A stretch of DNA of 61,485 bases, filler included, from Mustelus asterias (taxonomy: Eukaryota): the NCBI RefSeq assembly GCF_964213995.1. It is 3 parts of 3 records of this genome, joined end to end, with 100 filler letters (N's around TTAATTAATTAA, not from the genome) between each part and the next. Parts side by side here need not be neighbours in the genome. Positions count along the whole stretch, not along the records: positions 1 to 22,793 come from NW_027591538.1; 2 more parts are not named here. One strand, 5' to 3'. Position 1 is the stretch's first letter. Every line of letters starts with the position of its first letter. The notes under the pieces are model-generated. The model was not told the origin of the DNA, did no database searches, and saw only the letters and a list, made by a program, of their open reading frames with translations. A program made the translations under genes and the position numbers. This document shows, one piece after another, positions 1 to 53,297 of this stretch.

Positions 1-629
1 CTCGGTTTAACTCTCTTTCCTTCCAACCGGAGATCAGCTCTTTATATGACACCAGAGCCTGTCTTCATATTGCAATAGACCATGTTTCCCTTGCCATCAG
101 GATAGTATTAATTACGATATCTATCGGTGCGTCTGTCAGAATTCAATCATTTTAGTCAGAGTAAATTAACGATAATAGTGAAAGAGTATATTTAATCTTA
201 TTAACGTTTATAAGTACAAACCCAGAGGCCTCAGATGTCTGCGGTTTCATTTGATCGGATTAACTCGCTCATGTTAAATGTTATTTATTTTTATACCAGT
301 TTGTGACGACTTCTCAAGAACCTTAATCTTATTACCACGCGCTTGACCTGTTTACGCTGAACTTTTCGTTCTGACAGGTAGATTTCCTCGGGTTGCGATT
401 GTAAATAGAACTGTACACGGATTGAACAACTGAGGATTTGGATGGAGATCCCGTGAGGGAAGCAAATGCTGCAACACAGGAATTTTCAGGCGAAGTAATA
501 AAGATAAAGGGATGGAAAGACAATGGGAAACAATCTCATGTCTTTCGTCTGACTCCAGAGAATTATAACACAATTTACTCAGCATTTCATCAATTTCAAC
601 ATGGGGAACACGACAAGCCCCCTTTGTTC

Positions 630-2429: not shown

Positions 2430-4107
2430 ATGTTCTGGATTATTCCACTTGAGCTTCGTGTTGCTTGGGTACTTCACGATATCCAAAGGATTTACTACCC
2501 ACTCCTCGCTGCAGTTGGTGTAGCTGGTGAGTTAAATTTCACTCTGTTGATTGCACTTGTCCGTGAGACCCAATTAATAATTTTATAATGTGCAAACTTC
2601 ATGTTGCATATGTGCTAATGCAATTGGAAAATTTCTCTATCTTCCCAGCAGACATTTTCCCTACTCTTGCCTGGTGGTTGCTCTCTATTTCCCACTCTCC
2701 CCCCTCCCCACTACCAACCCCCTCTCCTCACTCCCCCCACTCCCACCACACCTTCACCGGCCACTTCCACTATTCCTGCCTTAATATCTACAGGGTCCTG
2801 CCTCAGTAAAATAAAATATATAATTTCCAGTTTTGTGATTTACAGCCAATTCCAAATCAACTTATGCAATATCTTCAGATGCACAGTCTGCAGCACAGCC
2901 ACAGCAGAGTGACCCAGACCAGGAACATTCCGTCCAAACCCATTGGTACCATTGTGTCTCCCAAATACAAATAAAGAGAAGGCAGGGAATTGGAGATCTG
3001 CTCTGTTGGTAAATTTAGTTTCTTGATACCTCAGTGCGATGCTTTCTTACTGTGAACCCAGTCTCAGCAGAACAGGTGAATCCATGTTTTTCTGAGGCTG
3101 GACTCTGTAAAACAAAATCCTGCAGCTGTTCCCCAGAAACCTGCCAGATTACTGCTCCTGTTCTCAGTCTGAAATATGAGTTAATTGTCTCTCACTTCCC
3201 TGCAGTGAACTTATTGACGATTCTTATCCTGTCTCGAGGGAGGTGTGGACTTTCCAAATGTGTCTCACGTTACCTAATTTCCATGTCAGCGGCGGATCTA
3301 CTCGTCGTCATCATCGACCTCGTATTGAGGCAAATTCCCATCAGTTTCAGAGATCAATTTGTCTTCATGTATCATGTTAAAGTGTGCAATATCCATGCCG
3401 TCCTGCTTTACGCAGTCACTGACTGTTCTGTCTGGTTCACTGTCACTTTTACCTTTGATCGATTCGTGGCCATTACTTGTCAGAAGCTGAAAATAAAATA
3501 CTGCACTGAGGAAACGGCAACTGTGGTTCTAGGAACAGTGAGTGTGGTATTCACTGTAAAAAACACTTTCTGGTACTTTATGTGTGAGAATAGCTATTGG
3601 CTTTCCAATACTCCCTATTTCTGTTCTGTAGATTTTGATGTCGCCTCCTCACCAGCATGGACAGCAGCTGAAAGTCTCCACTATATTTTAACCCCGACTA
3701 TTCCTTTTTTGTTGGTTGTGCTGTTCAACGTTTTAACCGTTAAATACATTGTAGTGTTGAGTAAAGTCCGCAGGAGACTTCGGACCCACAAGAATGGGGA
3801 AAGTCCAAGTGACCCAGTGATAGAGAAAAGAAGAAAATCTATCATCATACTGTTTGCAATATCGGGAAATTTTCTCCTGTTATGGTCAGTGTTCCTCTTC
3901 TATTGTTTATATGACCGACTGTACATGTTTAAATTATTTCTGTCGCGTTTACCACATTTTCTTTAGGAATTAGGAGTTATGCTCCAACTCCTGAGTTGCT
4001 GCACCAACACATGCATCTATGCAGTGACACAGACACAGTTCAGAGAGGATCTGAAAAATGTGGTGATGTTTCCAGTAACTGGAATTTTGAAATTCATTAA
4101 ACAGTAA
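2430..4107 (+). pseudogene. GPR139/GPR142-like class A GPCR, two exons (2430-2526, 3206-4107), one premature stop
   Basis: Exon 1 MFWIIPLELRVAWVLHDIQRIYYPLLAAVGVA ends G|GTGAGT. The acceptor ttccctgcag| joins it in phase 1 to VNLLTILILSRGRCGLSKC. TM2 is SMSAADLLVV and TM3 is TFDRFVAI. An in-frame TAG at 3964-3966 is followed by an open TM7/helix 8 (ELGVMLQLLSCCTNTCIYAVTQTQFREDLKNVV...KQ*, TAA 4105-4107). AATAAA at 4151-4156. Confidence 0.85.
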
Positions 4108-4160: not shown

Positions 4161-4180
4161 AGCGCGCACCCTGCTGGGCA
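4161..4180 (-). promoter_or_regulatory. CTCF-like motif downstream of the V1 RSS
   Basis: TGCCCAGCAGGGTGCGCGCT resembles the CTCF core CCASYAGRKGGCRC, imperfectly. It is positionally homologous to the better motif after V3. Confidence 0.5.
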
Positions 4181-4202
4181 CTAACTGGAACTGCCAGTGT
4201 GG

Positions 4203-4242
4203 GGTTTTTGCACGGCATTGGCTATGTCTCTGCAGCAGTGTG
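4203..4242 (-). other. Recombination signal sequence of V1: CACACTG-24 bp-GCAAAAACC
   Basis: Heptamer 4242-4236, spacer 4235-4212, nonamer 4211-4203. Confidence 0.9.
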
Positions 4243-4740
4243 GGCTCCATGGCACAGAAGTACACGGCGCTGTCGGAAATCAGTGTGTTACTGATTGTCA
4301 GCTCACTAGTCTTGTTCTTTTTATCAAATTTGGAAGAAAATCGATCATTGAGGTCGGGATTCTTTTGCACATTCTCTCCAATAAGCTTAAACATGTACAC
4401 CGGAGCTTTCCCGGGCTGCTGACTGTACCAGTACACATAAGGGTTGGAATCGCTTGTTTTCAAAGCGCAGGTTAGTGTGACATCATTTTCCTCTTTAACC
4501 TTTATTCCAGGATCCAATTGTTCCACTTCGTCTTGGTGGCTCCATTCTAACAGAAACAACAGCAATATGACAATCAGAGTTAGCCTCAGATTAAACGATA
4601 CAATTATCATCATCACTATTGTTTTATCAACAAGAATATCTGGGTTACAGCTGTCAGGAGGAGCATGTAGTTTTACGGGGAAGAAAATACTTACTGAGAA
4701 GTGAGAGAATGATGAGGATCGGAGTGAGATAGTTCACCAT
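4243..4740 (-). CDS. TRAV/TRDV: TCR alpha/delta V segment 1 (leader exon 4740-4695, V exon 4546-4243)
   Basis: Leader MVNYLTPILIILSLL with A|GTAAGT donor and tctgttag| acceptor. V-set motifs VTLTC, YWYSQQPGKAP, DRFS and SDSAVYFCAMEP, directly followed by an RSS. Confidence 0.93.
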
Positions 4741-4819
4741 GATGCTTCCTGAGTCTGTAACTCTGCAATGAGTGAAATCCTGTCAGAGACAGAAAGACAC
4801 TGTTCCACTGCACTGCTGA

Positions 4820-4915
4820 TCCAACCAATGAGAGGAATGGAGCAGCGGCAGCAATCCGTCCAATCACACAATTGGTTCAGAGTGAGAGCAGAAAACGGAA
4901 GTCGTGGGCGGGGAT
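4820..4915. promoter_or_regulatory. Probable V1 promoter region: CCAAT boxes, ETS site, GC box
   Basis: CCAAT at ~4825 and ~4860, ATTGG at ~4871, CGGAAGT at ~4896 and GGGCGGGG at ~4906, all 80-175 bp upstream of the V1 ATG. Confidence 0.4.
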
Positions 4916-5752
4916 GCAGTAGACAAAATATTGAGTGAAGTGTGCGGCAGATTCAGCTGCACCCGGAACGGAAATAGCGAGACTTCCATCTCTGGAATCT
5001 GTCACCATTCTGCACCTGCTCACTGTTCAAGTGACTGAGAAGAAATAGAGAGGGAGGGGCATAACGGGGCCAGGGACATGAACAAAATAGAAACATCGCG
5101 TATCAATGCAGGAGATGTGGCCACTCGGACCATGGTATCTTTGCTTGACAGAATTCAGAATTGATGTGAGAATTCAGAATTGACAGAATTCTTCAATTCA
5201 GCTTTCAAATCCCGCATCTCTCACAGTGACTGCATCTTTCTGCTTTCAACCTATCTCCCATTCCCTTCTGAAACTTACTGTTATCTCTTTTTCCGCCATC
5301 TCTTTAGACACCGCGGGGATAGGCCTGGGTAAGAGTCGATGCACACTTGATGGGCCGAATGGCCTCCTTTTGCACTGTAGGGATCCGATGACCACCTTCC
5401 AAGTTTAACAAATCGCAGAGTAATCAATGAATCTAATCTTTCCATTGCCCTCTCACCTCCTAAAGTAGACGCTTGTGTTTTCCAAAGTTCTGCCGGCGGA
5501 AACTGTGACATGCGATTTACTTTGACAAAACCACATGATGTTGAGCACCTCAGCTGGTCTCTCTTTACCTCCTTTGATATTAAGAGATGAACTCCTGTGT
5601 CACAGTGGATCGCGTCTGTGCCTCTGAGGCAGAAACATCGGCTTCAATTCGAAAGCCAGTACCTGATAGCTGAGGATATTTATTGGAGCCTCAGCCATTA
5701 CTATCCACAACTCCAGACAATAACATGGAAAAAAAGTGAACAGAGTACATAA

Positions 5753-5932
5753 GAAGATGTGCGGGTTAGGTTGATTGGCCAGGTTAAAAATTGCCCCTTA
5801 GAGTCCTGAGATGCGTAAGTGAGAGGGATTAGCGGGTAAATATGTGGGGGTAGGGCCTGGGTGGGATTGTGGTCGGTGCAGACTCGATGGGCCGAATGGC
5901 CTCCTTCTGCACTGTAGGGTTTCTATTCTATA
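5753..5932 (+). mobile_element. HE1/V-SINE 3' half
   Basis: Matches the 3' half of the full-length copy at 6427-6761. Confidence 0.85.
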
Positions 5933-6426
5933 AGAGTTTTGCCGCTGTAACTCAGACTGCTCCGAGGGAATGGTTTGAACGGAGGACAGGTTGTTATAGG
6001 AGCACAGAGCCCTATTCCAATTCGGGCTGTGATGTATTTCAAACTCGCCTCCTTGTCCTTCGCGTGGTTCAGTTCATCGCGCTATGGGTCGGACCTGTCT
6101 CTTTGCAGAGAACTCCAGAAGAATTGCAGTTTGCATAGTCCATCTGCATCGCAATTCCTCATCCCTGGCATTATTCTGGTGTATTGCCGCCGCCCTTATT
6201 CCAAAGTCATTACCCGCTTTCGAATCGTTTACCCAAGATTGTACACAGAGTCCTTGTTACCGTTAAACGAAGATGTCTGCGGTTTTAGAATCATAGAATC
6301 ATAGATTTATTGGTTTACAAATCAAAGCAGAAATATCAGACAACATCTTCCAGATATTTAAATTGGACCTAATTATACATAGTCCTTGCTGTTTTTCCTG
6401 GTAAGCCAGAAAGTGGTATAAAAGTG

Positions 6427-6761
6427 GGGCGGCACGGTAGCGCAGTGGTTAGCACTGCTGCTTTACAGCTCCAGGGACCTGGGTTCGATTCCTGGCTTGG
6501 GTCACTGTCTGTGTGGAGTTTGCACATTCTCCTCGTGTCTGCGTGGGTTTCCTCCGGGTGCTCCGGTTTCCTCCCACAGTCCAAAGATGTGCGGGATAGG
6601 TTGATTGGCCAGGTTAAAATTGCCCCTTAGTGTCCCGGGATGCGTGGATTAGCGGGCAAAATATGTAGGGATATGGGGGTAGGGCCTGGGTGGGATTGTG
6701 GTCGGTGCAGACTCGATGGGCCGAATGGCCTCGTTCTGTACTGTAGGGATTCTATGATCTA
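6427..6761 (+). mobile_element. Full-length tRNA-derived HE1-type V-SINE
   Basis: A box (TAGCGCAGTGG), B box (GGTTCGATTCC), V-domain core (GCGTGGGTTTCCTCCGGGTGCTCCGGTTTCCTCCCAC) and a CR1-like tail ending in TTCTATGA. Confidence 0.92.
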
Positions 6762-7462
6762 TAAACTCTTGTAGAATGTAGAATCGGCAATTGTTGAAAG
6801 CAATCTTGATTCTTGCAGGTGAAAAAAATCTGGACACTTGTCCCTATTTTAATGTTGCCACCGTTTGGCGAAGCACGTGCGTATAAATTATAAAATGGGA
6901 CGTTTGGGGATGATAACAGGATATTCCTCTTGTCATGGTACGAATGATTATAATATAATTAAGATTTCACCTGAAGAGGGAGGGACATCAAACTAAATCG
7001 TTGATGCTTCAGTTGAAATCCTGGAGAAAACGGAGCCAGAGCCGAGAGGCGGGAGGACCTGGTTACATTTGAAACGAATATTTGAATTGCAGCTTCAGTA
7101 GAATTCGCATGACTGATCATTTCAATTTGAAATCAATGCCTTCATTGATGAACAGTTAAACTTTAAACACTTTTATCAATGAAAGTAGCTGCAGTAAAGA
7201 AGCGCGCTGGGTTATTGACAACTGACTTGTTCATAAGTGACCCGAAAGAGAAGCGGCGGCGGATCAACAAACCACATCCTGACATCCGAAGAACAGAGTC
7301 TGATTCCAGCCAATCAGACTGCAAAAAACTGAAACTTTATCTGGTGCTCCATGAGTGGCGGATTGAAGCTGTTGATTCACTCCGTGCTTTTCTGCTGCGA
7401 GTTCTGCTCCGGTTCCCTTCTGACATTTTTATTGTATTACTTCTGACATTTTTGTTGTATTA

Positions 7463-7881
7463 ATGGATCTGTTCGTTTTCATTCTGATTCTACTAACTTG
7501 TAAGTGCAGGAAATTTACTCGGTCACTTGTAGAGACTGTTTATTTAAAAACGTTTTGCTCCAGTGCCTCATTGTCTGAATGTTTTTTCATAGATCGGTGT
7601 CGCTCGGACCAAGTTTCACAAACTCCCACAGCGAGAACAGTCCAGAGCGGGGATTCGGTGCTGATAAACTGCAGTTATGATATGTCCAGCATTGATGGAA
7701 TGTATTGGTACAGACAAAAACCCGGTCAGGGACTCGAGTGGATAATAAGAAGATTATCGAATGGCAAAGAGAGAAAAGACCGGTTCGAATTGGAACTTTC
7801 CACTGCGGGCAAACGGGGCCAGTTGGTTATTGGAAACACGGAGAGCGCGGATGCCGCTCTGTATTACTGTGCGATACAGCC
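7463..7881 (+). CDS. TRAV/TRDV: TCR alpha/delta V segment 2 (leader exon 7463-7499, V exon 7593-7881), TRAV-like short C'-D region
   Basis: Leader MDLFVFILILLT with T|GTAAGT donor and ttttcatag| acceptor. Motifs VLINC, YWYRQKPGQGLEW, DRF and ADAALYYCAIQP, followed by an RSS. Confidence 0.93.
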
Positions 7882-7920
7882 CACACTGAGAGGAAAGACG
7901 CTCGTCACTGTACAAAAACC
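7882..7920 (+). other. RSS of V2: CACACTG-23 bp-ACAAAAACC
   Basis: Heptamer 7882-7888; consensus nonamer 7912-7920. Confidence 0.95.
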
Positions 7921-7959
7921 TCACGCCTGTTTTCAGTTGCTGCAGCAATCCTGCCTCGT

Positions 7960-8200
7960 ACATCTCCTTTAAACCTCGCCCCTCACACCTTAAACCTGTG
8001 CCCCCTAGTAATTGGCTCTTCCACCCTGGGAAAAAGCTTCTGACCATCCACTCTGTCCGTGCCCCTCATAATCTTGTAGACTTCTATCAGGTCTCCCCTC
8101 AAACCTCCGTCGATCCAGTGAGAACAAACCAAGTATTTTTCAATGAGATTCCCCCTTCATCTCTCTAAACTCCATCGAATGCAGATCCAAAGTCCTCAGC
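7960..8200 (-). mobile_element. CR1-clade LINE 3' fragment
   Basis: Reverse complement matches the LINE at 27.25-27.4 kb (ttctcactgga..cgacggagg..gacctgatagaa..ctacaagattatgaggggca). Confidence 0.75.
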
Positions 8201-8818
8201 TGTCTGCGGTTTTATTTGATCGGCCTCACACGCTCAGATTGAATGTTATTTATTTTTTGTGACGGTTTCTCAAGAACACTAATCTCATTGTGCGTGACCT
8301 GGTGACGCTGAACTCTTTATCCTCCACGGTAGATTTCAGGGGGTTGCGATTGTAAATAAAACAATACGCGATTTGTACAACAGTGGATTTAGATGTTGAT
8401 CCCGTGAGGGGAATAAATGCAGCAACACAGAAAGCTTCAAGCTGAGGGATGAAGATAAACAAAGAACAAAGAACACAGAACAGTACAGCACAGGAAACAG
8501 GCCCTTCGGCCCTCCAAGCCTGTGCCGCTCATTGGTCCAACTAGACGAATGGAAAGACAGTGGGTGAATTCGAGACCGTGATAGAATTCAAGGCACAGAT
8601 TAGGAGGAACAGATGGAGTTACAGGGATATAAACACGAGGAAAGGGAATGAGAGAAATGTGCGAGAGGCAAGGAGATAAATAGAGGGACAGACAGTAAGA
8701 TAAATGAGGGAGAGACGGAGACAGGAAGGGAAATAGATGAAGGTTCGGTGAAGGAACTGTGAAGGGAGCAGTTGCAGATTTATGGAGACAGTACAGACGA
8801 AAACATAAAGAGAGAACA

Positions 8819-9004
8819 AAGATGTGCGGGTTCGGTTGATTGGCCATGCTAAAAATTGCCCTCAGTGTCCTGAGATGTGTAGGTTAGAGGGATTAGCGGG
8901 TAAATGTGTAGGGATATGGGGGTAGAGCCTGGGTGGGATTGTGGTCGGTGCAGACTCGATGGGCCGAATGGCCTCTTTCTGCACTGTAGGGTTTCTATGA
9001 TTTC
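8819..9004 (+). mobile_element. HE1/V-SINE 3' half
   Basis: Matches the 3' half of the 6427-6761 element. Confidence 0.85.
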
Positions 9005-9242
9005 TCCATCTGTTCCTCCTAATCTGTGCCTTGACTTCTATCACGGCCTCGGCCTCGAATTCACCCACTGTCTTTCCATTCGTTCATCTTCATTCCTTAA
9101 CACAACATAATATAACATAGTACATGATACCGACAGGATTATTTCCGAGAGCTTCTGGATGCCCGAGGAAACCAGACCAGCAGCAGAACCGCCTCGTAAA
9201 GCTTCCCGGACCCGCTGCAGTAAACACACAAACATGGTGAGG

Positions 9243-9260
9243 CACCGCCATCTGGCGGCA
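9243..9260 (-). promoter_or_regulatory. CTCF-like motif between V2 and V3
   Basis: Minus strand TGCCGCCAGATGGCGGTG is a close match to the CTCF core consensus. Confidence 0.55.
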
Positions 9261-10111
9261 ATCTGAGGTAACTGGTCATTTCCTGCAAAATCATCGAATT
9301 CTCAAATTACAGAAGGTCGTTACTACTGGTGATTATGTTGCATTATTCTTGTTCATCCTTTTACTATTCCAATGCAATTGAACACAGTTGAACGTATACA
9401 TGAGAGATAATAACATCGTTATTTTAATTGCTGGCGATTCGCTTTATTCAATTAATAGTGGTTATAAAACTCATTCTAAACAATATGAAGCCCTCAAGAT
9501 TCCGATAAGATGCCTTTCCTAAAATAACAACACAAGATGTAAATATGACCCTGGATTCACATTCATTTCCTATATTCTTTAGTTATTTACATTTAAATAT
9601 TTCCATCATAATGTTACCTCGCAACTTCTGGTTATTAACGTTTTCTACATTTGTTGCACCAAAAGAATGAGTAACTTAGTGGATTCATTGAAATAGGAGA
9701 GTGAGGGAAATCGGATTGTCTGAACTCTGAATTTTAGGGAGAAGGAGAGAAAGATAAGAATGGAGAGCCAGTGCGAAGACAGAGACGGTCAGAAGCAGAG
9801 CAATGGGGGCGAGACAAACAGAGGCGGAATGACAGAGCGAGATAGACAGGCTCCAAACGAAGAGAGAGCAGGGGAATCTGAGAAAGACACGGAGAAAGAG
9901 AAACTCAGAACTTATTAGTCGAGCGAACGCTGATTGATGCCCGACGATCATCAATCCTGAGAAAGCGGCCAATCCTGTCGCTGGGAAACGCCCCATAATT
10001 TCTGAGTAAATTACGTTCCCGCTGATATGAATTTCCGCTTGAATATCAGAACAGAAATGTCAACACATTTCAAATACTGCTTCATTTCTGCCGAACCCGA
10101 AACCAGACACC

Positions 10112-10654
10112 ATGTGCTCCTTACTTTGTTTGCTGATAATAATGGTCTTGCTGCCCGGTGAGTCAATAAACTCTGACAAAGTGTCATCCTGACTTGAAAC
10201 ATTATCTCTGTTCGCCTCTCACAGATGTTGTCAGATCTTCTGAAAATTTCGAGCATTTTCTTTTTTTGAGTCAATGTTTAAACGATCAGTGTCTGTCCCA
10301 TGGGCTCTCTTCCCTCCCAGATATTGAACACCTTCTGTGTTTTGTTACAGGGGCAAAGGCTGAAGATTCAGTGTTTCAAGATCGATCTGAATTATCGGTT
10401 CTGGAAGGACAGAACATAACACTGGACTGTAAATACCCAACAGCTACTTCTGAAACTATGTTCTGGTACATCCAGTATCCCGGGCAAGCTCCGAGATATT
10501 TGATGAAGATATATAGCTCGGGCAATACCGATAAGTCTCCGGATTTCTCAGATAGATTCTCGGCTGCTTTGCACAAAGGAAACAATACTGTTCCTTTGAA
10601 TATCGCCAGAGCTGTTCTGTCCGACAGCGCCGTGTATTTCTGTGCCATGGAGCC
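10112..10654 (+). CDS. TRAV/TRDV: TCR alpha/delta V segment 3 (leader exon 10112-10157, V exon 10351-10654)
   Basis: Leader MCSLLCLLIIMVLLP with G|GTGAGT donor and ttgttacag| acceptor. Motifs ITLDC, FWYIQYPGQAP, DRFS and SDSAVYFCAMEP, followed by an RSS. Confidence 0.93.
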
Positions 10655-10692
10655 CACACTGGTACAGATGGAGCGAACCCCGCACAAAAACC
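10655..10692 (+). other. RSS of V3: CACACTG-22 bp-ACAAAAACC
   Basis: Heptamer 10655-10661; nonamer 10684-10692. Confidence 0.93.
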
Positions 10693-10714
10693 CCAGACTG
10701 GGAGTTCCGGTTAG

Positions 10715-10733
10715 TGATCAGCAGAGGGCGCTC
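10715..10733 (+). promoter_or_regulatory. CTCF-like motif downstream of the V3 RSS
   Basis: TGATCAGCAGAGGGCGCTC is a strong match to the CTCF core and starts 22 bp past the nonamer. Confidence 0.65.
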
Positions 10734-12361
10734 CCACACTGATAAACAGAAATAATTATTTTGTCTCGACAGTGATAGTCACAGGGTCATAAACAAAATA
10801 TCAAAACAAAACACAACACTCAACACGAACGGCTGAGCCACAGTTGAATTTTTAACTTGCTACTATACTAAAAATACATTTACAGTTCCTTAACTCACGC
10901 TTCAACCTTTGATGACATTTTCTTGCCTGTGTGAATTATTGTGCAGCACTTTCCCCATCTTCACTCTCCTTTTCAAGGTCTCTTTGATCAAAGGGTCTAT
11001 TTGATCAGAGTATTTTGCTGCCTAAGGGACAGCTTATATTGGCATATACATTTCGCAAGGTTATCATTGTGCTATTTAAAACAATCCCTGAGAACAGGTT
11101 GCCATCAATGTTCATTCTCATTTTGAATGTCTGTCAAATGTTTTCGGACACAATTCACAACCCAGTGTTTCTCTGTTTCAATAATCAGACCAGCGACTTC
11201 ATTCCCACCCCTGGCCCCAACAATATAGCGATTTTCCTCACAAGCACACTGATTATATCTCAGCTTGGGTTATTTCTGCTCACTGGAAGCCAGGTCTCCA
11301 GCTTCAGGGCTAAAAACACCACTGCGACACATTTTTTTTTTATTTCAAAAATATACTTTATTCACAAAAAAAAACTCTCCAATAAAACATTGCAAAATGA
11401 CAGATCCAAAGGTCATAAACAGTGCAAAAAAGAATCATTTTTACAGTACAATACAGTGCTTATTTACAAAAACATTACATTTTGTTACATTTCATTTCTT
11501 AAAACTATATACATGTGTCAGAGTTTACTGTGTGCCGTTATTTTTCAGGTTGGCACACAGTTACTCAGGCCGAGGGTATTCTGCAGTTACCCGGCCCTCG
11601 GTCTGCCTCGGTTGAGACGGGGTGGGGAGGGGGAACTTCAGATAGGCAATTGTGGAATAAACACATTTAAAGTAATTTCCCAATCGTGATTTCAACCTAA
11701 AGTTTAAACACACTCCGATATGATTGATTCGGGTTTGAACATGTATTTCAGATCTGAGTCATGGAAATTATGTCACTTACTTATTGTCCTCAAATGATGA
11801 GACAGAAAAAGAAGTAGTTTTTTTTACAAGTTTCAACTATGACATTGCAAGGATTGTCTTTGTTTTATTCTGGAACTCACTGATCAATATCAGCTTTATG
11901 ATATTGAACTGCGCTCGCAGGGAGTCTTACTCATGTTTGCAGACAATCGTGAAACAAACAACAGCAACAGCACCGGTCAGGCAGCCAAACCTCTCCATCT
12001 CCAGCTGGAGAAATTGGACTCTGAAGAGATGATCCGAATAAGGACTCACTTACGGAATTTATGATGGAAACCAATCCAACCCCGCACTTTGCATTGTGTT
12101 CGGGAGCTCCTGTCTGTCGGATTGTAAAATAGTAATTGCTTAGCGTTGCAAAGCCAATGCAGAGAGCGGACTGGCCAAGCCAGAATCCATCTCCTCATTG
12201 CCCCCAAAACCAATTCAAATTGAATCTAATTCATGGTCCTCGCAAAAAATCCAAGCTGACATGAAAGAGCATCGCACCTGATCTTGGACTCGATTTGATG
12301 CTTGATTCGAGCCCAAAGACCGAGGTGCCTGCTTTCTGTTTTAGTTATATCCAATCAAAAA

Positions 12362-16548: not shown

Positions 16549-18965
16549 CCCCCCCTCCTGGGCTTTGCCCCCCCCTCCTGGGCTTTGCCCCCCCCTCCTG
16601 GGCTTTGCCCCCCCCTCCTGGGCTTTGCCCCCCCCTCCTGGGCTTTGCCCCCCCCCTCCTGGGCTTTGCCCCCCCCTCCTGGGCTTTGCCCCCCCCTCCT
16701 GGGCTTTGCCCCCCCCTCCTGGGCTTTGCCCCCCCCCTCCTGGGCTTTGCCCCCCCCCTCCTGGGCTTTGCCCCCCCCCTCCTGGGCTTTGCCCCCCCCC
16801 TCCTGGGCTTTGCCCCCCCCCTCCTGGGCTTTGCCCCCCCCCTCCTGGGCTTTGCCCCCCCCCCCTCCTGGGCTTTGCCCCCCCCCCCCCTCCTGGGCTT
16901 TGCCCCCCCCCCTCCTGGGCTTTGCCCCCCCCCCTCCTGGGCTTTGCCCCCCCCTCCTGGGCTTTGCACCCCTGGGCATTGCCCCCCCCGCTTGCCCCCC
17001 CCCCCCCCGCTTGCCCCCCCCCCGCTTGCCCCCCCCCGCTTGCCCCCCCCCCGCTTGCCCCCCCCCCGCTTGCCCCCCCCCCGCTTGCCCCCCCCGCTTG
17101 CCCCCCCCGCTTGCCCGCCCCCCGCTTGCCCGCCCCCCGCTTGCCCGCCCCCCGCTTGCCCGCCCCCCGCTTGCCCGCCCCCCGCTTGCCCGCCCCCCGC
17201 TTGCCCGCCCCCCGCTTGCCCGCCCCCCGCTTGCCCGCCCCCCGCTTGCCCGCCCCCCGCTTGCCCGCCCCCCGCTTGCCCGCCCCCCGCTTGCCCGCCC
17301 CCGCTTGCCCGCCCCCGCTTGCCCGCCCCCCGCTTGCCCGCCCCCCGCTTGCCCGCCCCCCGCTTGCCCGCCCCCCGCTTGCCCGCCCCCCGCTTGCCCG
17401 CCCCCCGCTTGCCCGCCCCCCGACTGCCCGCCCCCCGACTGCCCGCCCCCCGACTGCCCGCCCCCCCGACTGCCCGCCCCCCGACTGCCCGCCCCCCCGA
17501 CTGCCCGCCCCCCCGACTGCCCGCCCCCCCGACTGCCCNNNNNNNNNNNNNNNNNNNNNNNNNNNNNNNNNNNNNNNNNNNNNNNNNNNNNNNNNNNNNN
17601 NNNNNNNNNNNNNNNNNNNNNNNNNNNNNNNNNNNNNNNNNNNNNNNNNNNNNNNNNNNNNNNNNNNNNNNNNNNNNNNNNNNNNNNNNNNNNNNNNNNN
17701 NNNNNNNNNNNNNNNNNNNNNNNNNNNNNNNNNNNNNNNNNNNNNNNNNNNNNNNNNNNNNNNNNNNNNNNNNNNNNNNNNNNNNNNNNNNNNNNNNNNN
17801 NNNNNNNNNNNNNNNNNNNNNNNNNNNNNNNNNNNNNNNNNNNNNNNNNNNNNNNNNNNNNNNNNNNNNNNNNNNNNNNNNNNNNNNNNNNNNNNNNNNN
17901 NNNNNNNNNNNNNNNNNNNNNNNNNNNNNNNNNNNNNNNNNNNNNNNNNNNNNNNNNNNNNNNCGACTGCCCGCCCCCCCCCGACTGCCCCCCCCCCGAC
18001 TGCCCCCGCCCCCGACTGCCCCCCCCCCCGACTGCCCCCCCCCCGACTGCCCCCCCCCCGACTGCCCGCCCCCCGACTGCCCGCCCCCCGACTGCCNNNN
18101 NNNNNNNNNNNNNNNNNNNNNNNNNNNNNNNNNNNNNNNNNNNNNNNNNNNNNNNNNNNNNNNNNNNNNNNNNNNNNNNNNNNNNNNNNNNNNNNNNNNN
18201 NNNNNNNNNNNNNNNNNNNNNNNNNNNNNNNNNNNNNNNNNNNNNNNNNNNNNNNNNNNNNNNNNNNNNNNNNNNNNNNNNNNNNNNNNNNNNNNNNNNN
18301 NNNNNNNNNNNNNNNNNNNNNNNNNNNNNNNNNNNNNNNNNNNNNNNNNNNNNNNNNNNNNNNNNNNNNNNNNNNNNNNNNNNNNNNNNNNNNNNNNNNN
18401 NNNNNNNNNNNNNNNNNNNNNNNNNNNNNNNNNNNNNNNNNNNNNNNNNNNNNNNNNNNNNNNNNNNNNNNNNNNNNNNNNNNNNNNNNNNNNNNNNNNN
18501 NNNNNNNNNNNNNNNNNNNNNNNNNNNNNNNNNNNNNNNNNNNNNNNNNNNNNNNNNNNNNNNNNNNNNNNNNNNNNNNNNNNNNNNNNNNNNNNNNNNN
18601 NNNNNNNNNNNNNNNNNNNNNNNNNNNNNNNNNNNNNNNNNNNNNNNNNNNNNNNNNNNNNNNNNNNNNNNNNNNNNNNNNNNNNNNNNNNNNNNNNNNN
18701 NNNNNNNNNNNNNNNNNNNNNNNNNNNNNNNNNNNNNNNNNNNNNNNNNNNNNNNNNNNNNNNNNNNNNNNNNNNNNNNNNNNNNNNNNNNNNNNNNNNN
18801 NNNNNNNNNNNNNNNNNNNNNNNNNNNNNNNNNNNNNNNNNNNNNNNNNNNNNNNNNNNNNNNNNNNNNNNNNNNNNNNNNNCGACTGCCCGCCCCCCGA
18901 CTGCCCGCCCCCCGACTGCCCGCCCCCCGCTTGTTCCCCCCCCCCCCCCGCTTGTTCCCCCCCCG
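16549..18965. repeat. C-rich tandem array with progressively changing unit, partly N-masked
   Basis: Units change from C(n)TCCTGGGCTTTG to CCCGCCCCCCGCTTG to CCCGCCCCCCGACTG. Confidence 0.95.
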
Positions 18966-21900
18966 AGCTGTCCCCCCCTCTCAGACCCGCCCTGACCAAT
19001 TCCTCTGAGACCCTCCAGTCCCACCAGGATTTCACCCCCCCTCCCCCCAAATCCCAGCCCTATCCATAGGGGCCCCTCCCCAGCTCCTGAACTCCTGTCC
19101 CCAAACCCCACCCCCACCGACAGACCCAAACCCCACCCCCACCGACAGACCCAAACCCCACCCCCACCGACAGACCCAAACCCCACCCCCACCGACAGAC
19201 CCAAACCCCACCCCCACCGACAGACCCAAACCCCACCCCCACCGACAGACCCAGCCCCCACCGACAGACCCGAACCCCACACCCACCCCCACCGACAGAC
19301 CCGAACCCCACCCCCACCGACAGACCCGAACCCCACCCCCACCGACAGACCCGAACCCCACCCCCACCGACAGACCCGAACCCCACACCCACCGACAGAC
19401 CCAACCCCCACTGAGCCTAATCCCCCCCGACTCCTGAACCCACTCCCAATCCTAAACCTGCCGCACTCAATCTCTCACCCCCAAATTCCCCTCTCCCCTC
19501 CAGGTTCCCCACCCCCCAAAACCCCCTTTAAATCCCCACTGCCCAAACCCACTCTCAGTCCCTCCACTTAAACCCCTCTGAACCTCCCCTCTGCCCAATC
19601 TCTCTCTGCCCCTCCTCCCGATCCTCTCTGCCCCTCCCCCTGATCCTCTCTGCCCAATCTTCTCCAATCCCAATTCCCCCCCCCCCCCCCCACTCCAGCC
19701 AAATCTGTTGTCCCTCCTCACAATCCCTCTAAATCTCCCGATCCTTCCCTCTGAGCCCCGTACCCCGCTCCCCCACTGCCCAAACCATCTTCAAAGCCCC
19801 CCGGCTGAATATCCCTCTAAGTTCCCCTCTTTCCCCCCACCCCTCTCAACCTGGCAAATTCCCACTCCCTCCCTGTGAACAGCCTCTGGACTGACAGATC
19901 CCCCCCCTTCTAATTAGTAACCCCCCCCCCCCCCCCCCCACCACACATCTATCCCCGTCCACCACCCCCCTGTAAACAGCTCCTGGTGGAGTTGGATGTG
20001 GAAACTCTGCCCATTTTAAACATTAACGTTCAAACGACTAATTCCCCTGACACTGAGCAGCCTGTGTTATAACATCCCGCACCCCCATCCTGTACAACAG
20101 ACCCCCTGTCTGATTCCCCCCCCCCCCTCAATTGCCCCCTTTCTCTGATAACCCCTGACTCTGGTCAGCCTGTGTTATAATATTCCCCCCTCTTGTACAA
20201 CAGCCTCCCCCACCAGCCCCTTCCCTCTCTGTCTAATAGCCCCTGGCTCTGAACAAGCCCCTGTATTACACACTCCCCCCTTTCAGCAGTGCTGAATCCC
20301 TCTGAATTGCCCCCGATTCCCTCCCTCTGCGTTCCTGGGCCTTTGCTGCTTGTGAACAGCAAACCCGTGATCTGGCCCGTCCCCCACGAGAGAGCAGAGA
20401 GGGAGATAAGAGGCAGAGAAGCAGAGAGATATAGAGATGGAGTTAGAGAGAATGCTACTGTAATTCAGACAGAATGATTCACAGAGAGAGGGAAGCAGAG
20501 ATCAGATACAGAGAGAGATAAGAGGCAGAGAGATATAGAGATGGAGATAGGATGCGACTGTAATTCAGACATTGATTCACAGAGAAGGGAGGGAGCAGAG
20601 ATAAGAGACAGAGATATAGAGATGGAGTTAGTGAGGAATCTGCTGTGATTCAGACAATGATTCACAGAGAGAGGGAAGCAGAGAACAGATAGAGATATAG
20701 AGACAGAGGATGCTACTTTAATTCAAACAGACTGAGTCAGGGGGAGGCAGAGATAGAGAGAGGGGGAAGCAGAGAGAGATAGAGAGAGTCAAGCAGATAG
20801 CTAGAGAGATAAGACAGAGAAGCAGAGTTAAAGTTCAAATTTTATTCGTCACAAGTAGGCTTACATTAACACTGCAATGAAGTTACTGTGAAAAGATGGA
20901 GATAGAGAGAATGCTGCTGTACTTCAGACAGAATGAGTCAGAGAGGGAGCAGAGATAGATAGAGCGAGAGAGAGATGGAGAGGAGGCTGCTGTGATTGAG
21001 ATAAAATGATCCACAGAGAGGGAGAGAGAGATGTGCAGAGAGGCTGAGATACAAAGTGAGATGTCGAGATAAATAGAAAGTGGGGCTTTGGCAAGACAGT
21101 GACAAAGTTTCAGAGAGAGAGTGAAAGATAGAGAGAATGAGAGAAAAGGGAGAAAGATGCTGCCATTTTGAGAGGCTGAGGTATAAAGGATGGGGAGAGA
21201 CAGGGATTGGAAAGATGTGGAGAAACAGTTCTGAGGATGGGGGAGTTGCACAGACAGAGCTTCAGGGAGAGGGATTGAAATCTGGGATTACATTGGAGCA
21301 GGGATCACTGGGAATACCCCCTCCCCCTGACACACAGACCACTAACCCTCCGTGTAAAAGCCCCACCAGTCTATCTGTGAATAAAAATGAACGACCAAGA
21401 CACGGGGACTTTTATTAATATTTTTCTCTCTGGTTATAGCTCTTGTCCGAGGATTCCTCACGGCAAAACTATTCGCTCTCTGCATCGCCAAAGTTTCCAA
21501 AGGAATTCTCCTTGGAAGAGAGAAAGAGAAAATAAAGTGAAATTTGATTAAACACAAAACAAAAGCTGATTATAAACAATAAAAGGCACAGCAAGATCCC
21601 AGGACTTGCTGAAATTCACAATCTCACTGGGGGAGGTGGGGGAAACATTCATTTTCACCTCCTCATTATTAAACCCTGACAAAATGGGAACACGTTTCAA
21701 ATGCAATGAACTTCCAACTGCCTCCTGACTGTCCCGATATTGAATTTATTAAACACATCAAAGCATTCTGGGGGCTTTACTCCAGAGACAGGCCAGTGAA
21801 AAAACACAGGAGGCCCCAATGAAGTTCCCACTTCTATCAGTCACCTCTCTCCCCTCACTCTGTTTCTCCCTCTCCGTCTCTTACACACTTCCCCCCAGAT

Positions 21901-22793
21901 CTCTATCTGTCCAATACCCCGTCTCTGCTCCTGTCTCTGGATAACCTGTCCTGATCTCTGCTCTGTTTCTCTATCTCGAGGCGAATCTGGATTGAAATGC
22001 TCTCTCTAAGTTTCTGTCTGACCGTTTAAAATAAAACTCACAATCAAAAGGGAAATGAGAAGGGGGCGGGAGCTGGAAAATCCACAATCCCACCCTGAAG
22101 CGGCTGCTTCACATTTTATTGAACCATTGAATTCAGCCACTTAAACCCTGTTGGGGAATTAAGCGAATGCAAAAGTGCTGCTGAGATTTAGGCCGTGAAG
22201 TGAGGCCTAGTCACAGAGGCTGCATTATTCCTCCGGTAGAAAGAACAAACCCCCCTCTCTCCCACCCCCCAGTTAAACAGAACAATCTTCTCCATCCACA
22301 CCCACAAATCCCAGCGCCCTGTCTAAAAACACAAGCAGGACTCTGGGATTGAGAACAAGCCTTTCCCCCAGGCTCAGGAATTTGAATTTCAGCTCCCTCT
22401 CCCTCCCGAGTGCTTCACAGTGAGAGAGAGAGAGAGACTGGGAATGCTGCAATCAGGATCCCACAGGGAGTCCCACACTGCAGGAGGACACCCCCCCCAC
22501 CCCCAGAGCCTCTGTCTCTATCCCCCTACCCCCCCTCCACTGAGCCCCCCCACACTCCCCACCCATTCTCTGTTCCTCTCTCTCTACCCCACCCTCCTTC
22601 CTCTCCATCTTTTCATGTTTAAAGTGTGGGGCGCTGTCACAGTGCAGGGAATATGGGGCGGGGAGGAGGGCACAGCAAGATCCCACACACAGTCTGAGCA
22701 GGGCTAGATACAAAGTGATTTTTAAGTGAGGATTGGGCTAAAGTGAGTGGGCAATGAGGGAACCACACTTCTCCCTCTCTCTCCCTCGCTCCC
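18942..22793 (+). repeat. Left copy of a ~3.9-kb near-identical inverted duplication (partner 49438-53297)
   Basis: Identical ORF translations on opposite strands, e.g. 20165-20362(-) = 51870-52067(+) and 21342-21557(-) = 50675-50890(+). Confidence 0.95.
19100..19410. repeat. 25-bp minisatellite (CCCRAACCCCACCCCCACCGACAGA), mirrored at ~52828-53138
   Basis: About 12 direct tandem copies. Confidence 0.95.
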
Positions 22794-48200: not shown

Positions 48201-49935
48201 GCTGTGCAGCAAGTGCTGGGGAATGGGGGGAGTATAGATTGGGATTTGACGGCCAGCATAGACCTGGTGGGCCGAAGGGCCTGTTTCTGTGCTGTGTGAC
48301 TCCAGATTCTCCTCTCTCTTTTCCCAGGAATTTCTATTTGGATGGAGGGTTCATAATTTCCCTGTCTCTGTCTCTCCAGCGTTCTTCCCAATCTCTGCAC
48401 CCCTCCCCTCTCTCTCTCCCCAGACATTCCTGTCTATATTTCACCTTTCAATCAAATGTGAAGGAAAACACCAATGTGAATTTTTTTGATTTAATTTCAG
48501 GGAGGGAAAGACAGAGAGAGAGAAAGAGAGAGACAGGGAGGGGGGGAAGGAGAGAAAGACAGAGAGAGAGAGAGAGAAAGGCAGCCGAATAAAACCTGCA
48601 GCAGCCGCTTAAATCCATCGGATTGGGGATGTGATTGTGGGTTTTCCTGCTGCATCTCTCTCTCCCATCTTTCTCCTTTGATTGTGAGTTATCAGGGAGG
48701 GAGAGAGAAAGGGAGGGTAACAGAGGGAGATCAAAGGCAGAGGGGCAGGGAGAGGAGACACACTGGAGGGGCGGGGTGGGTTCGGGGGGGGTCCTCTGCT
48801 CTGCACTCACAGCCCAGCTCCCCAGTCTCTGGGGAAAAGACCCTCACTCACACCCTCCCAGAAGGTGGGATTTGTAACCAGCGGCTGTGTGACTGAGGCT
48901 GAATCTGTGCTGTTGTGTTTGAAAAGATTTTTTCCCAATATAAAGATATTGGAATCTGGCTGCTGCCACATTGCAGTGAGAGAGAGATCTGGCTTTGCAG
49001 GAGGAGCTTCCCTCCCCATTTCCCCACGGAAATCACTGAGAAATAGCAAGCGTGGCCCACAACACGTCATTATTTGAAACGGTCAGACAGAAACTTATCA
49101 GAGAGAGCATTTTAATCCCCATTCATCCCCAGACGGGGAAACAGAGCAGAGATCAGGACAGATTATCCAGAGTAGGAGAGACCGGGGCAGAGATGGGGTT
49201 TGGATATATATAGATCTGGGGGGAAAGCAAAAGAGACACAGAGGGGGCTGGACAGGTTCAGAGATAGAGGCAGAGAAACAGGCAGAGAGAAAGAAACAGC
49301 GAGAGACAGAGGGAATGGGAGAGGTGTGACTGTGCTCGAAGTGGAAGGTTCCCTGTTCATATTGAATGTACAAACAGCCCCAATCCTGGAGTGACTTGTC
49401 ATTATTTTTATTTGGGGTGGGGGAAGAGATGGAGGGGGGGAGCAAGGGAGAGAGAGGGAGAAGTGTGGTTCCCTCATTGCCCACTCACTTTAGCCCAATC
49501 CTCACTTAAAAATCACTTTGTATCTGGCCCTGCTCAGACTGTGTGTGTGGGATCTTGCTGTGCCCTCCTCCCCGCCCCATATTCCCTGCACTGTGACAGC
49601 GCCCCACACTTTAAACATGAAAAGATGGAGAGGAAGGAGGGTGGGGTAGAGAGAGAGGAATAGAGAATGGGTGGGGAGTGTGGGGGGGCTCAGGGGAGGG
49701 GGGGTAGGGGGATAGAGACAGAGTCTCTGGGGGTGGGGGGTGTCCTCCTGCAGTGTGGGACTCCCTGTGGGATCCTGATTGCAGCATTCCCAGTCTCTCT
49801 CTCTCTCTCACTGTGAAGCACTCGGGAGGGAGAGGGAGCTGAAATTCAAATTCCTGAGCCTGGGGGGAAAGGCTTGTTCTCAATCCCAGAGTCCTGCTTG
49901 TGTTTTTAGACAGGGCGCTGGGATTTGTGGGTGTG
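42290..49935 (+). repeat. Local direct segmental duplications
   Basis: 42290-43060 resembles 47680-48500; 45076-46570 resembles 48615-49935; 46860-47220 resembles 46070-46430. Confidence 0.85.
44617..45070 (-). mobile_element. CR1-clade LINE 3' end
   Basis: LNKLGLFSLERRRLRDD...FTQRVVGAWNALP on the minus strand. It is absent from the paralogous site at ~48605. Confidence 0.9.
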
Positions 49936-52900: not shown

Positions 52901-53297
52901 GGTGGGGTTCGGGTCTGTCGGTGGGGGTGGGGTTCGGGTCTGTCGGTGGGGGTGGGTGTGGGGTTCGGGTCTGTCGGTGGGGGCTGGGTCTGTCGGTGGG
53001 GGTGGGGTTTGGGTCTGTCGGTGGGGGTGGGGTTTGGGTCTGTCGGTGGGGGTGGGGTTTGGGTCTGTCGGTGGGGGTGGGGTTTGGGTCTGTCGGTGGG
53101 GGTGGGGTTTGGGTCTGTCGGTGGGGGTGGGGTTTGGGGACAGGAGTTCAGGAGCTGGGGAGGGGCCCCTATGGATAGGGCTGGGATTTGGGGGGAGGGG
53201 GGGTGAAATCCTGGTGGGACTGGAGGGTCTCAGAGGAATTGGTCAGGGCGGGTCTGAGAGGGGGGGACAGCTCGGGGGGGGGAACAAGCGGGGGGGG
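49438..53297 (-). repeat. Right copy of the ~3.9-kb inverted duplication
   Basis: Reverse complement of 18942-22793; ends exactly at the second spacer. Confidence 0.95.

What the first reader, a model, noticed from the sequence alone, without database searches (positions are those of the whole stretch)
4161..10733. RSS-proximal CTCF-like elements behind shark TCR V segments
Seen: the ~40 bp after the nonamer is conserved between V1 (ccacactggcagttccagttagtgcccagcagggtgcgc) and V3 (ccagactgggagttccggttagtgatcagcagagggcgc), although their RSS spacers are mostly dissimilar. Both end in a CTCF-like core starting 22 bp from the nonamer and oriented with the V. Known: mouse D-proximal Igh VH segments have CTCF-binding elements just downstream of the RSS that promote usage during cohesin loop extrusion and RAG scanning. 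Inference: the same architecture may operate in a cartilaginous-fish TCR locus, which would suggest an ancient origin. This is my best candidate for an undescribed mechanism here.
Basis: partly seen in the sequence, partly recalled or inferred. Interest (0 to 1): 0.7.

Follow-up and report, generated by a model that had tools for sequence, protein, structure and literature searches.

The report
CTCF cassette behind shark TCR Vs
Two otherwise dissimilar shark T-cell-receptor gene segments carry, just behind their cutting signal, the same conserved two-part motif that is predicted to bind the genome-folding protein CTCF and would likely help these segments get used, as similar sites do for mouse antibody genes; binding is untested.

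Summary
V1 and V3, intact TCR alpha/delta-type V segments only about 45% alike as proteins, share 32 of the first 39 bases behind the RSS nonamer. That stretch is a two-part CTCF-type site: a core one mismatch from the published consensus (2 of only 3 such matches in 61 kb) plus an upstream module (8/10 and 7/10), both oriented with the V. Contigs of related genomes keep it while the RSS spacer varies, and a skate gene model appears to carry it. It is one shared 3' cassette, so V1 and V3 are one observation, not two; V2 lacks it. The layout resembles the RSS-associated CTCF sites of mouse and human IGHV (23 bp here versus 17-19), not mouse Tcra/d, whose sites lie at promoters. V1 is inverted relative to V3, so strict linear RAG scanning cannot serve both from one centre. 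CTCF binding and any effect on V usage are untested. I found no paper describing this in sharks (six searches, listings only). This scan noted the same element before on other DNA, in this genome and others. Verdict: real feature, new variant of a known kind.

The parts
4243..4740 (-). V1: intact TCR alpha/delta-type V gene (leader 4740-4695, intron, V exon about 4546-4243), inverted relative to V2 and V3
   Evidence: open spliced frame; Pfam V-set E 1.4e-15
4203..4242 (-). V1 RSS: heptamer CACACTG, 24-nt spacer, nonamer GCAAAAACC
4187..4196 (-). V1 predicted CTCF upstream module TGGCAGTTCC (8/10 to CTGCAGTTCC), 9 nt before the core
   Evidence: consensus from PMC12885311
4162..4180 (-). V1 predicted CTCF core (14-mer 4164-4177, CCAGCAGGGTGCGC), oriented with V1; carries T at a normally G position
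   Evidence: 1 mismatch; rank 3 of 115,970 scored positions, recalled matrix
7463..7920 (+). V2: intact V gene of another family with a canonical 23-nt RSS (heptamer 7882-7888, nonamer 7912-7920) and no RSS-proximal CTCF-type site; internal negative control
9243..9261 (-). third CTCF-type core, best score in the window, about 850 bp upstream of the V3 leader and pointing away from V3; not RSS-associated; weak upstream module (6/10)
10112..10654 (+). V3: intact TCR alpha/delta-type V gene (leader 10112-10157, V exon about 10351-10654)
   Evidence: Pfam V-set E 2e-17; 92% to a Mustelus asterias gene model
10655..10692 (+). V3 RSS: heptamer CACACTG, 22-nt spacer, nonamer ACAAAAACC
10699..10708 (+). 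V3 predicted CTCF upstream module TGGGAGTTCC (7/10), 9 nt before the core
10715..10733 (+). V3 predicted CTCF core (14-mer 10718-10731, TCAGCAGAGGGCGC), oriented with V3
   Evidence: 1 mismatch; rank 2
10620..10731 (+). shared 3' cassette (last 11 codons, heptamer, spacer, nonamer, upstream module, core); its counterpart is 4164-4277 on the minus strand
   Evidence: 82% over 114 bp, the only V1-V3 DNA match at E<1e-5; other V bodies join the block at 10620-10623 in related runs

Best explanation
The 39 bp behind the nonamer of V1 and V3 is a conserved two-part motif, predicted to bind CTCF, inside a 3' cassette shared by dissimilar shark TCR alpha/delta-type V families, and it likely stalls cohesin loop extrusion beside the RSS so that these V segments would contact the RAG-bound recombination centre for longer and be used more. 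Shown: the motif, its offset, its orientation with each V, its conservation relative to the spacer and flank, and its absence from V2. Inferred: CTCF binding by zinc fingers 3-7 (core) and 9-11 (upstream module); purifying selection as the cause of conservation; spread between V families by an old exchange of 3' ends; and the effect on usage. Because V1 and V3 are inverted relative to each other, at least one would have to be captured by short-range diffusion and joined by inversion, or be little used, rather than be reached by strictly linear scanning.
For: Core one mismatch from the published consensus in both V segments at the same 25-nt offset, 2 of 3 matches in the window. Ranks 2 and 3 of 115,970 positions with a recalled 19-nt matrix. 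Two mismatches from the mouse mVH-CTCF 14-mer, i.e. within that paper's cut-off (read from the sequence; PMC6746451). Upstream module 8/10 and 7/10 at a 9-nt gap; window frequency per position 0.0007 and 0.005; lamprey CTCF binds the same two-part motif (PMC5504073). Conservation drops in the spacer (13/22) and after the core (11/20, 10/40). In contigs of two runs laid on 10615-10764, differences at 25% share or more number 8 in the 31 nt of spacer plus nonamer and 1 in the 39 nt behind it, in the linker (Fisher p 0.005). Read-through peptide tails: the 4 ending in CAMEPT rank 1-4 of 40 for compatibility with the element, including a Leucoraja erinacea model at 23/27 nt versus at most 19 in the other 36. 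Mammalian clan-III-type VH contigs fetched here carry a forward site one base closer (4 of 5). Mouse RSS-associated sites raise usage of VH with weak RSSs (PMC11153149), and V1 and V3 have off-length spacers (24, 22) while V2 has 23.
Against: No binding, chromatin or repertoire data. V1 and V3 are not independent. V1-V3 identity is about even across the 39 nt (5/6, 9/10, 7/9, 11/14), so it does not single out CTCF-contact bases. The V1 core has T at a nearly invariant G (also seen in one mouse RSS-associated site, mCTCF19). The window count of consensus matches is reached by 5 of 100 shuffles. Contigs were recruited at 80% likeness, which favours carriers of the element; only 16 of 109 laid records were shown; 2 of 4 runs gave nothing; one run may be the window's own source. 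Peptide-tail evidence is indirect (no DNA seen) and 2 of the 4 tails (20/27) barely exceed the background maximum (19). Only 4 of 60 teleost V clusters have a forward site at offsets 10-49, at variable offsets, and only 1 of 60 under the strict consensus (p 0.07). Opposite orientations of V1 and V3 do not fit linear scanning from one centre. No J, D or C segment was seen in the window, so linkage to a recombination centre is not shown. Motif prediction alone predicted CTCF sites poorly in Hox clusters (PMC5504073).
Confidence: 0.55

Rival explanations
1. CTCF binds these sites, but they serve general locus folding or insulation (for example between V promoters, or between V1 and the convergent GPCR gene 54 bp away) and do not tune use of the adjacent RSS.
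For: A stronger core at 9243-9261 is not RSS-associated, and with the V3 site it flanks V3 divergently. The upstream module is typical of insulator-type sites (PMC12885311). Mouse Tcra/d sites are mostly upstream of V promoters (PMC5859386 Table 2). The sites follow each V, not one locus direction.
Against: The offset from the nonamer is identical in V1 and V3 and close to that of mammalian VH sites of proven effect. V3 has no neighbouring GPCR gene.
Confidence: 0.2
2. Passive hitch-hiking: a gene-conversion tract copied the end of FR3, the RSS and flank between V families, and the CTCF resemblance is incidental or no longer functional.
For: One contiguous 114-bp block with a sharp 5' edge near 10620; linker as conserved as the core; faint residual likeness beyond the core; 9 of 10 shared residues in the last 11 codons use identical codons versus 19 of 31 elsewhere (not significant, p 0.13).
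Against: The spacer in the middle of the block is far more diverged (13/22, with length change) than either side, which one neutral tract would not give. The element persists in other runs and apparently in a skate. A passive tract does not explain a core plus upstream module at correct spacing.
Confidence: 0.12
3. The block is under selection for something other than CTCF, such as another zinc-finger or E-box factor, nucleosome positioning at the RSS, or RAG contacts beyond the nonamer.
For: Conservation begins immediately after the nonamer and includes non-CTCF positions; an extra CACACTG follows the V1 nonamer and the V3 core (sequence).
Against: Both halves match the two known CTCF modules with a permitted gap, and conservation ends close to the end of the core. 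The extra heptamers have no nonamer partner. No other factor matrix was tested.
Confidence: 0.1

Closest known systems
RSS-associated CTCF-binding elements of mouse D-proximal VH (7183, Q52 and others; VH5-2) and human IGHV clans II/III (PMC6746451, PMC4914699, PMC11153149)
   Same: CTCF core at a fixed short distance behind a V 23-type RSS nonamer, one orientation relative to the V, confined to a subset of V lineages, two mismatches or fewer from GACCAGCAGGGGGC.
   Different: Here on TCR alpha/delta-type V segments of a cartilaginous fish; 23 bp in that paper's register versus 17-19 (mouse) and 19 or 48 (human); intervening DNA is conserved and holds an upstream module, whereas in mouse it is not conserved; carriers lie in both chromosomal orientations; binding and function untested.
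CTCF sites of the mouse Tcra/Tcrd V region (PMC5859386 Table 2; INT1/INT2, TEA)
   Same: Same receptor class; the third site about 850 bp upstream of V3 resembles the promoter-upstream class.
   Different: Mouse Tcra/d sites are listed as upstream of V promoters or intergenic, not at the RSS; only 2 Tcrb sites are listed near an RSS.
Two-part (core plus upstream/M2) CTCF sites of vertebrates including lamprey (PMC12885311, PMC10484683, PMC5504073)
   Same: Core plus CTGCAGTTCC-like module at a permitted gap (9 nt to the CCA).
   Different: Modules match at 8/10 and 7/10 only; occupancy not shown.
Igk-type diffusion-mediated V capture with CBE impediments (PMC11153149)
   Same: V segments in both orientations, which linear scanning cannot serve.
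   Different: None of 103 mouse Vk segments has an RSS-proximal CBE, and Vk RSSs are strong.

Membership tests
Two-part CTCF binding site | core matching CCASYAGRKGGCRS | tested here: met
   one mismatch each; matrix ranks 2 and 3 in the window (recalled matrix)
Two-part CTCF binding site | upstream CTGCAGTTCC-like module at a permitted gap | tested here: met
   8/10 and 7/10 at 9 nt; other gaps 0-5/10; the IL3 site in PMC12885311 has 8 nt
Two-part CTCF binding site | CTCF occupancy in vitro or in vivo | not testable with these tools
   no ChIP library was identifiable among the 18 runs listed (library field empty)
RSS-associated VH CBE (mouse/human IGH class) | two mismatches or fewer from mVH-CTCF 14-mer | tested here: met
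   two mismatches each, read from the sequence at 10716-10729 and 4166-4179 against PMC6746451
RSS-associated VH CBE (mouse/human IGH class) | 17-19 bp (mouse) or 19/48 bp (human) from the nonamer | tested here: not met
   23 bp in that register in both V1 and V3; mammalian VH contigs fetched here give 22
RSS-associated VH CBE (mouse/human IGH class) | one orientation relative to V transcription | tested here: met
   G-rich strand on the V sense strand in V1, V3 and the mammalian VH contigs
RSS-associated VH CBE (mouse/human IGH class) | attached to IGHV clan II/III segments | tested here: not met
   named relatives are TCR alpha or alpha/delta V
RSS-associated VH CBE (mouse/human IGH class) | positional enrichment across the V segments of the locus | tested here: inconclusive
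   2 of 3 V in the window, not independent; many paralogous contigs carry it but recruitment is biased; no genome held
RSS-associated VH CBE (mouse/human IGH class) | raises usage of the adjacent V during loop extrusion | not testable with these tools
   no repertoire or perturbation data
TCR alpha/delta V segment | open leader plus V-set exon followed by a 23-type RSS | tested here: met
   spacers 24, 23 and 22 nt
TCR alpha/delta V segment | heptamer at position 15 from the cysteine codon, the class used in zebrafish tra joins | tested here: met
   all three V against PMC10322711 Extended Data Fig. 1 legend
TCR alpha/delta V segment | linkage or rearrangement to TRA/TRD J and C segments | not testable with these tools
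   no J, D or C segment seen in the window (RSS scan, ORF list); no genome held

The most novel reading that the evidence does not exclude
The RSS-proximal two-part CTCF site is an ancestral jawed-vertebrate module for tuning V usage that predates the split of Ig heavy-chain and TCR V lineages. In cartilaginous fish it travels as a 3' cassette between unrelated TCR V families and compensates for weak, off-length (22- or 24-nt spacer) RSSs; mammals kept it on clan II/III VH and lost it from TCR alpha/delta.
Probability: 0.25. Interest if true: 0.75.

Novelty: new variant of a known kind. Interest (0 to 1): 0.5.

Why it matters
CTCF and loop-extrusion control of V choice has been worked out in mouse, and RSS-associated sites are described for mammalian IGH. 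A conserved equivalent on shark and probably skate TCR V segments would push this control back to the base of jawed vertebrates and onto a second receptor class. It gives a direct test: cassette-bearing versus cassette-less V segments side by side in one locus, in both orientations, with different RSS spacer lengths.

Tried and rejected
No genome is held for the window, so a locus-wide scan was impossible. The metagenome pattern scan (104 stretches) returned no shark V; it gave teleost-type and mammal-type host contigs, used only as outgroups (fish and mammal labels are my reading of the proteins). My first enrichment count wrongly counted mammalian VH as fish and was redone. No RNA holder listed; this says nothing on expression. 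Runs X17 and X18 laid nothing, no proof of absence. Depth profiles peak at FR3-heptamer and again behind the spacer, but contig depth is not copy number and I did not rest any count on it. A V remnant near 28264 was rejected: it sits between SINE pieces without a V frame. The extra CACACTG heptamers were considered as a second RSS and rejected (no nonamer at 12 or 23). A synonymous-site test for recent conversion of the FR3 end was not significant (p 0.13). Jain 2018 (Cell), a 2022 review and Hara 2018 (shark CTCF ChIP, recalled) are not held, so I rely on PMC11153149 for the mouse experiments. PMC12227049 and PMC10322711 have no occurrence of CTCF; PMC12310595 passages gave no RSS-proximal Tcrd site.
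Full report
Setting. The window holds three V genes in its first 11 kb and repeat-rich, gapped DNA after that. All three have an open leader and V exon and a V-set domain. V1 is on the minus strand, V2 and V3 on the plus strand. V3 is 92% identical to a Mustelus asterias gene model, and named relatives are TCR alpha or alpha/delta V segments. In all three the heptamer starts at position 15 from the cysteine codon, the class used in zebrafish tra joins (PMC10322711, figure legend). No J, D or C segment was seen and no genome is held, so the locus assignment rests on homology.

Observation. V1 and V3 share 32 of the first 39 nt behind the nonamer, then 11/20, 10/40 and 26/100. Their RSS spacers align at 13 of 22 and differ in length (24 and 22 nt). 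The last 11 codons are 32/33 identical while the rest of the exon is 135/252, and leader, intron and promoter do not align above shuffles. So the shared piece is one 114-bp 3' block (82%) with a decayed spacer in its middle. V2 shares none of it.

What the block is. The published consensus CCASYAGRKGGCRS (PMC6746451, figure legend) matches the window three times at one mismatch, 0.89 expected, and 5 of 100 shuffles reach three. Two of the three start exactly 25 nt behind a nonamer and run with the V. From that rate, a forward match within 50 nt of a given nonamer has a chance near 4 in 10,000 (my arithmetic), and I count V1 and V3 as one event. A recalled 19-nt matrix ranks them 2 and 3 of 115,970 positions. 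Nine nt upstream of each core is a match of 8/10 (V1) and 7/10 (V3) to the upstream module CTGCAGTTCC (PMC12885311, passages); such matches occur at 0.0007 and 0.005 per position in the window. The conserved 39 nt therefore coincide with a two-part CTCF site, a form that lamprey CTCF also binds (PMC5504073, passages; structure in PMC10484683, passages). Against this: identity is about even over module, linker and core, and the V1 core has T at a nearly invariant G, though one mouse RSS-associated site has the same change (supplement part 1 of 3).

Relatives. Of 18 runs listed I laid 6. On 9100-11300, four runs gave 736, 144, 696 and 697 contigs. On 10615-10764, X1 gave 64, X15 45, X17 and X18 none. 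Among the 16 records shown, seven with 9-21 other letters bridge from FR3 across the spacer to the core or beyond. Differences at 25% share or more fall at 5 spacer positions, 3 nonamer positions and 1 linker position, none in the module or core (8/31 versus 1/39, p 0.005). Loose ends show other V bodies joining the block at 10620-10623, and a longer spacer form reading 24 nt in three of four runs clearly and one blurred. Recruitment at 80% likeness favours carriers, organisms are coded, and X1 may be the window's source. Gene models that read through the RSS give a second line: of 40 distinct peptide tails, the four ending in CAMEPT rank first for compatibility with the element (26, 23, 20, 20 of 27 nt; the other 36 mean 16.5, maximum 19). 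The 23 is a Leucoraja erinacea model whose stop falls where a CCACTAG core would put it; an unnamed Logan protein 56% identical to V3 reads SADG at the same offset. This is inference from peptides; I saw no DNA for them.

Outgroups. An RSS-anchored scan of metagenome contigs gave 104 stretches and 92 distinct matches; I dropped 3 that were not V and 3 with under 70 nt of flank, leaving 86 in 62 clusters. Four of 5 mammalian clan-III-type VH have a forward site at matrix offset 21, one base closer than the shark's 22. Four of 60 teleost-type clusters have a forward site at offsets 10-49 (20, 31, 37, 44) against 0.45 expected (p 0.001) and one has a reverse site; under the strict consensus it is 1 of 60 (p 0.07). 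So RSS-proximal sites recur in a minority of fish V lineages at variable offsets. Shared ancestry and repeated gain both remain open.

Mechanism. In mouse, CBEs within 20 bp of proximal VH RSSs impede extrusion and raise usage of otherwise weak RSSs (PMC11153149, passages; PMC4914699, passages and section 20). The shark element has the same anatomy, and its carriers have off-length spacers while site-less V2 has a canonical one, a correlation on three genes only. I put binding at about 0.8 and a role in usage, given binding, at about 0.65-0.7, hence 0.55. Strict linear scanning is a poor fit because V1 and V3 face opposite ways and an inverted mouse VH locus barely joins; diffusion-aided inversional joining, low use of one gene, or mis-assembly would each resolve this. 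Rivals are insulation or general folding (0.2), passive conversion (0.12) and another factor (0.1).

Comparison and novelty. It works like the RSS-associated CBEs of mouse and human IGHV but fails two of their defining features, receptor class and exact distance (23 versus 17-19 bp; PMC6746451 abstract, Results part 1 of 3 and passages), so I file it as a variant. Mouse Tcra/d sites are listed at promoters or intergenic (PMC5859386 Table 2). Searches for a description in sharks or fish (listings and abstract starts only) showed none; the library lacks most subscription journals, including nurse shark TCR locus papers and shark CTCF ChIP work that I recall, and their supplements could bear on novelty. 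Earlier notes of this scan report the same element in this genome and others; they are unchecked leads and I did not count them as support. The word cassette and the lead to PMC11153149 come from them; the shared block and the 24-nt spacer were in my notes before.

Verdict. Real and conserved sequence feature, likely a functional CTCF site, function untested. Interest 0.5.

Noticed in passing
window 4212-4235 (minus) and 10662-10683 (plus): Off-length RSS spacers: 24 nt in V1 and 22 nt in V3; loose ends in related runs also read a 24-nt form, whereas all 86 outgroup V segments had 22 or 23.
   Followed up: partly
window 9243-9261 (minus): Best CTCF-type core of the window, about 850 bp upstream of the V3 leader and pointing away from it; with the RSS site it brackets V3 divergently. 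Similar to the '800 bp upstream' class in mouse Igh (PMC6746451).
   Followed up: partly
window 3019-4107 (plus): Rhodopsin-family GPCR frame (Pfam 7tm_1), convergent with V1 and ending 54 bp from its CTCF core; in-frame stop at 3964-3966 before the last helix, so probably a pseudogene or an assembly error.
   Followed up: partly
window 4195-4201 (minus) and 10735-10741 (plus): Extra CACACTG heptamer right after the V1 nonamer and right after the V3 core, without a nonamer partner.
   Followed up: partly
window 18942-22793 and 49438-53297: 3.86-kb inverted duplication at 99.5% identity next to N gaps; may be an assembly artefact and bears on trust in orientations on this contig.
   Followed up: no
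window 222-508 and 8187-8459: 76% alike over 287 bp; the second copy lies downstream of V2, so a V2-like unit may once have ended at or just left of the window start.
   Followed up: no
L006, L008, L019, L053 (offset 31), L023 (37), L029 (44), L032 (20), L015 (37, reverse): CTCF-type cores close behind V RSS nonamers in teleost-type TRAV, a CAVS-ending TCR V and a VH; background sites in these loci are also mostly in the V orientation (6 forward, 1 reverse).
   Followed up: partly
L021, L026, L039, L070: Mammalian clan-III-type VH with a forward CTCF-type core at matrix offset 21 and a CTGCAG-containing word between nonamer and core, at a longer gap than the usual upstream module.
   Followed up: no
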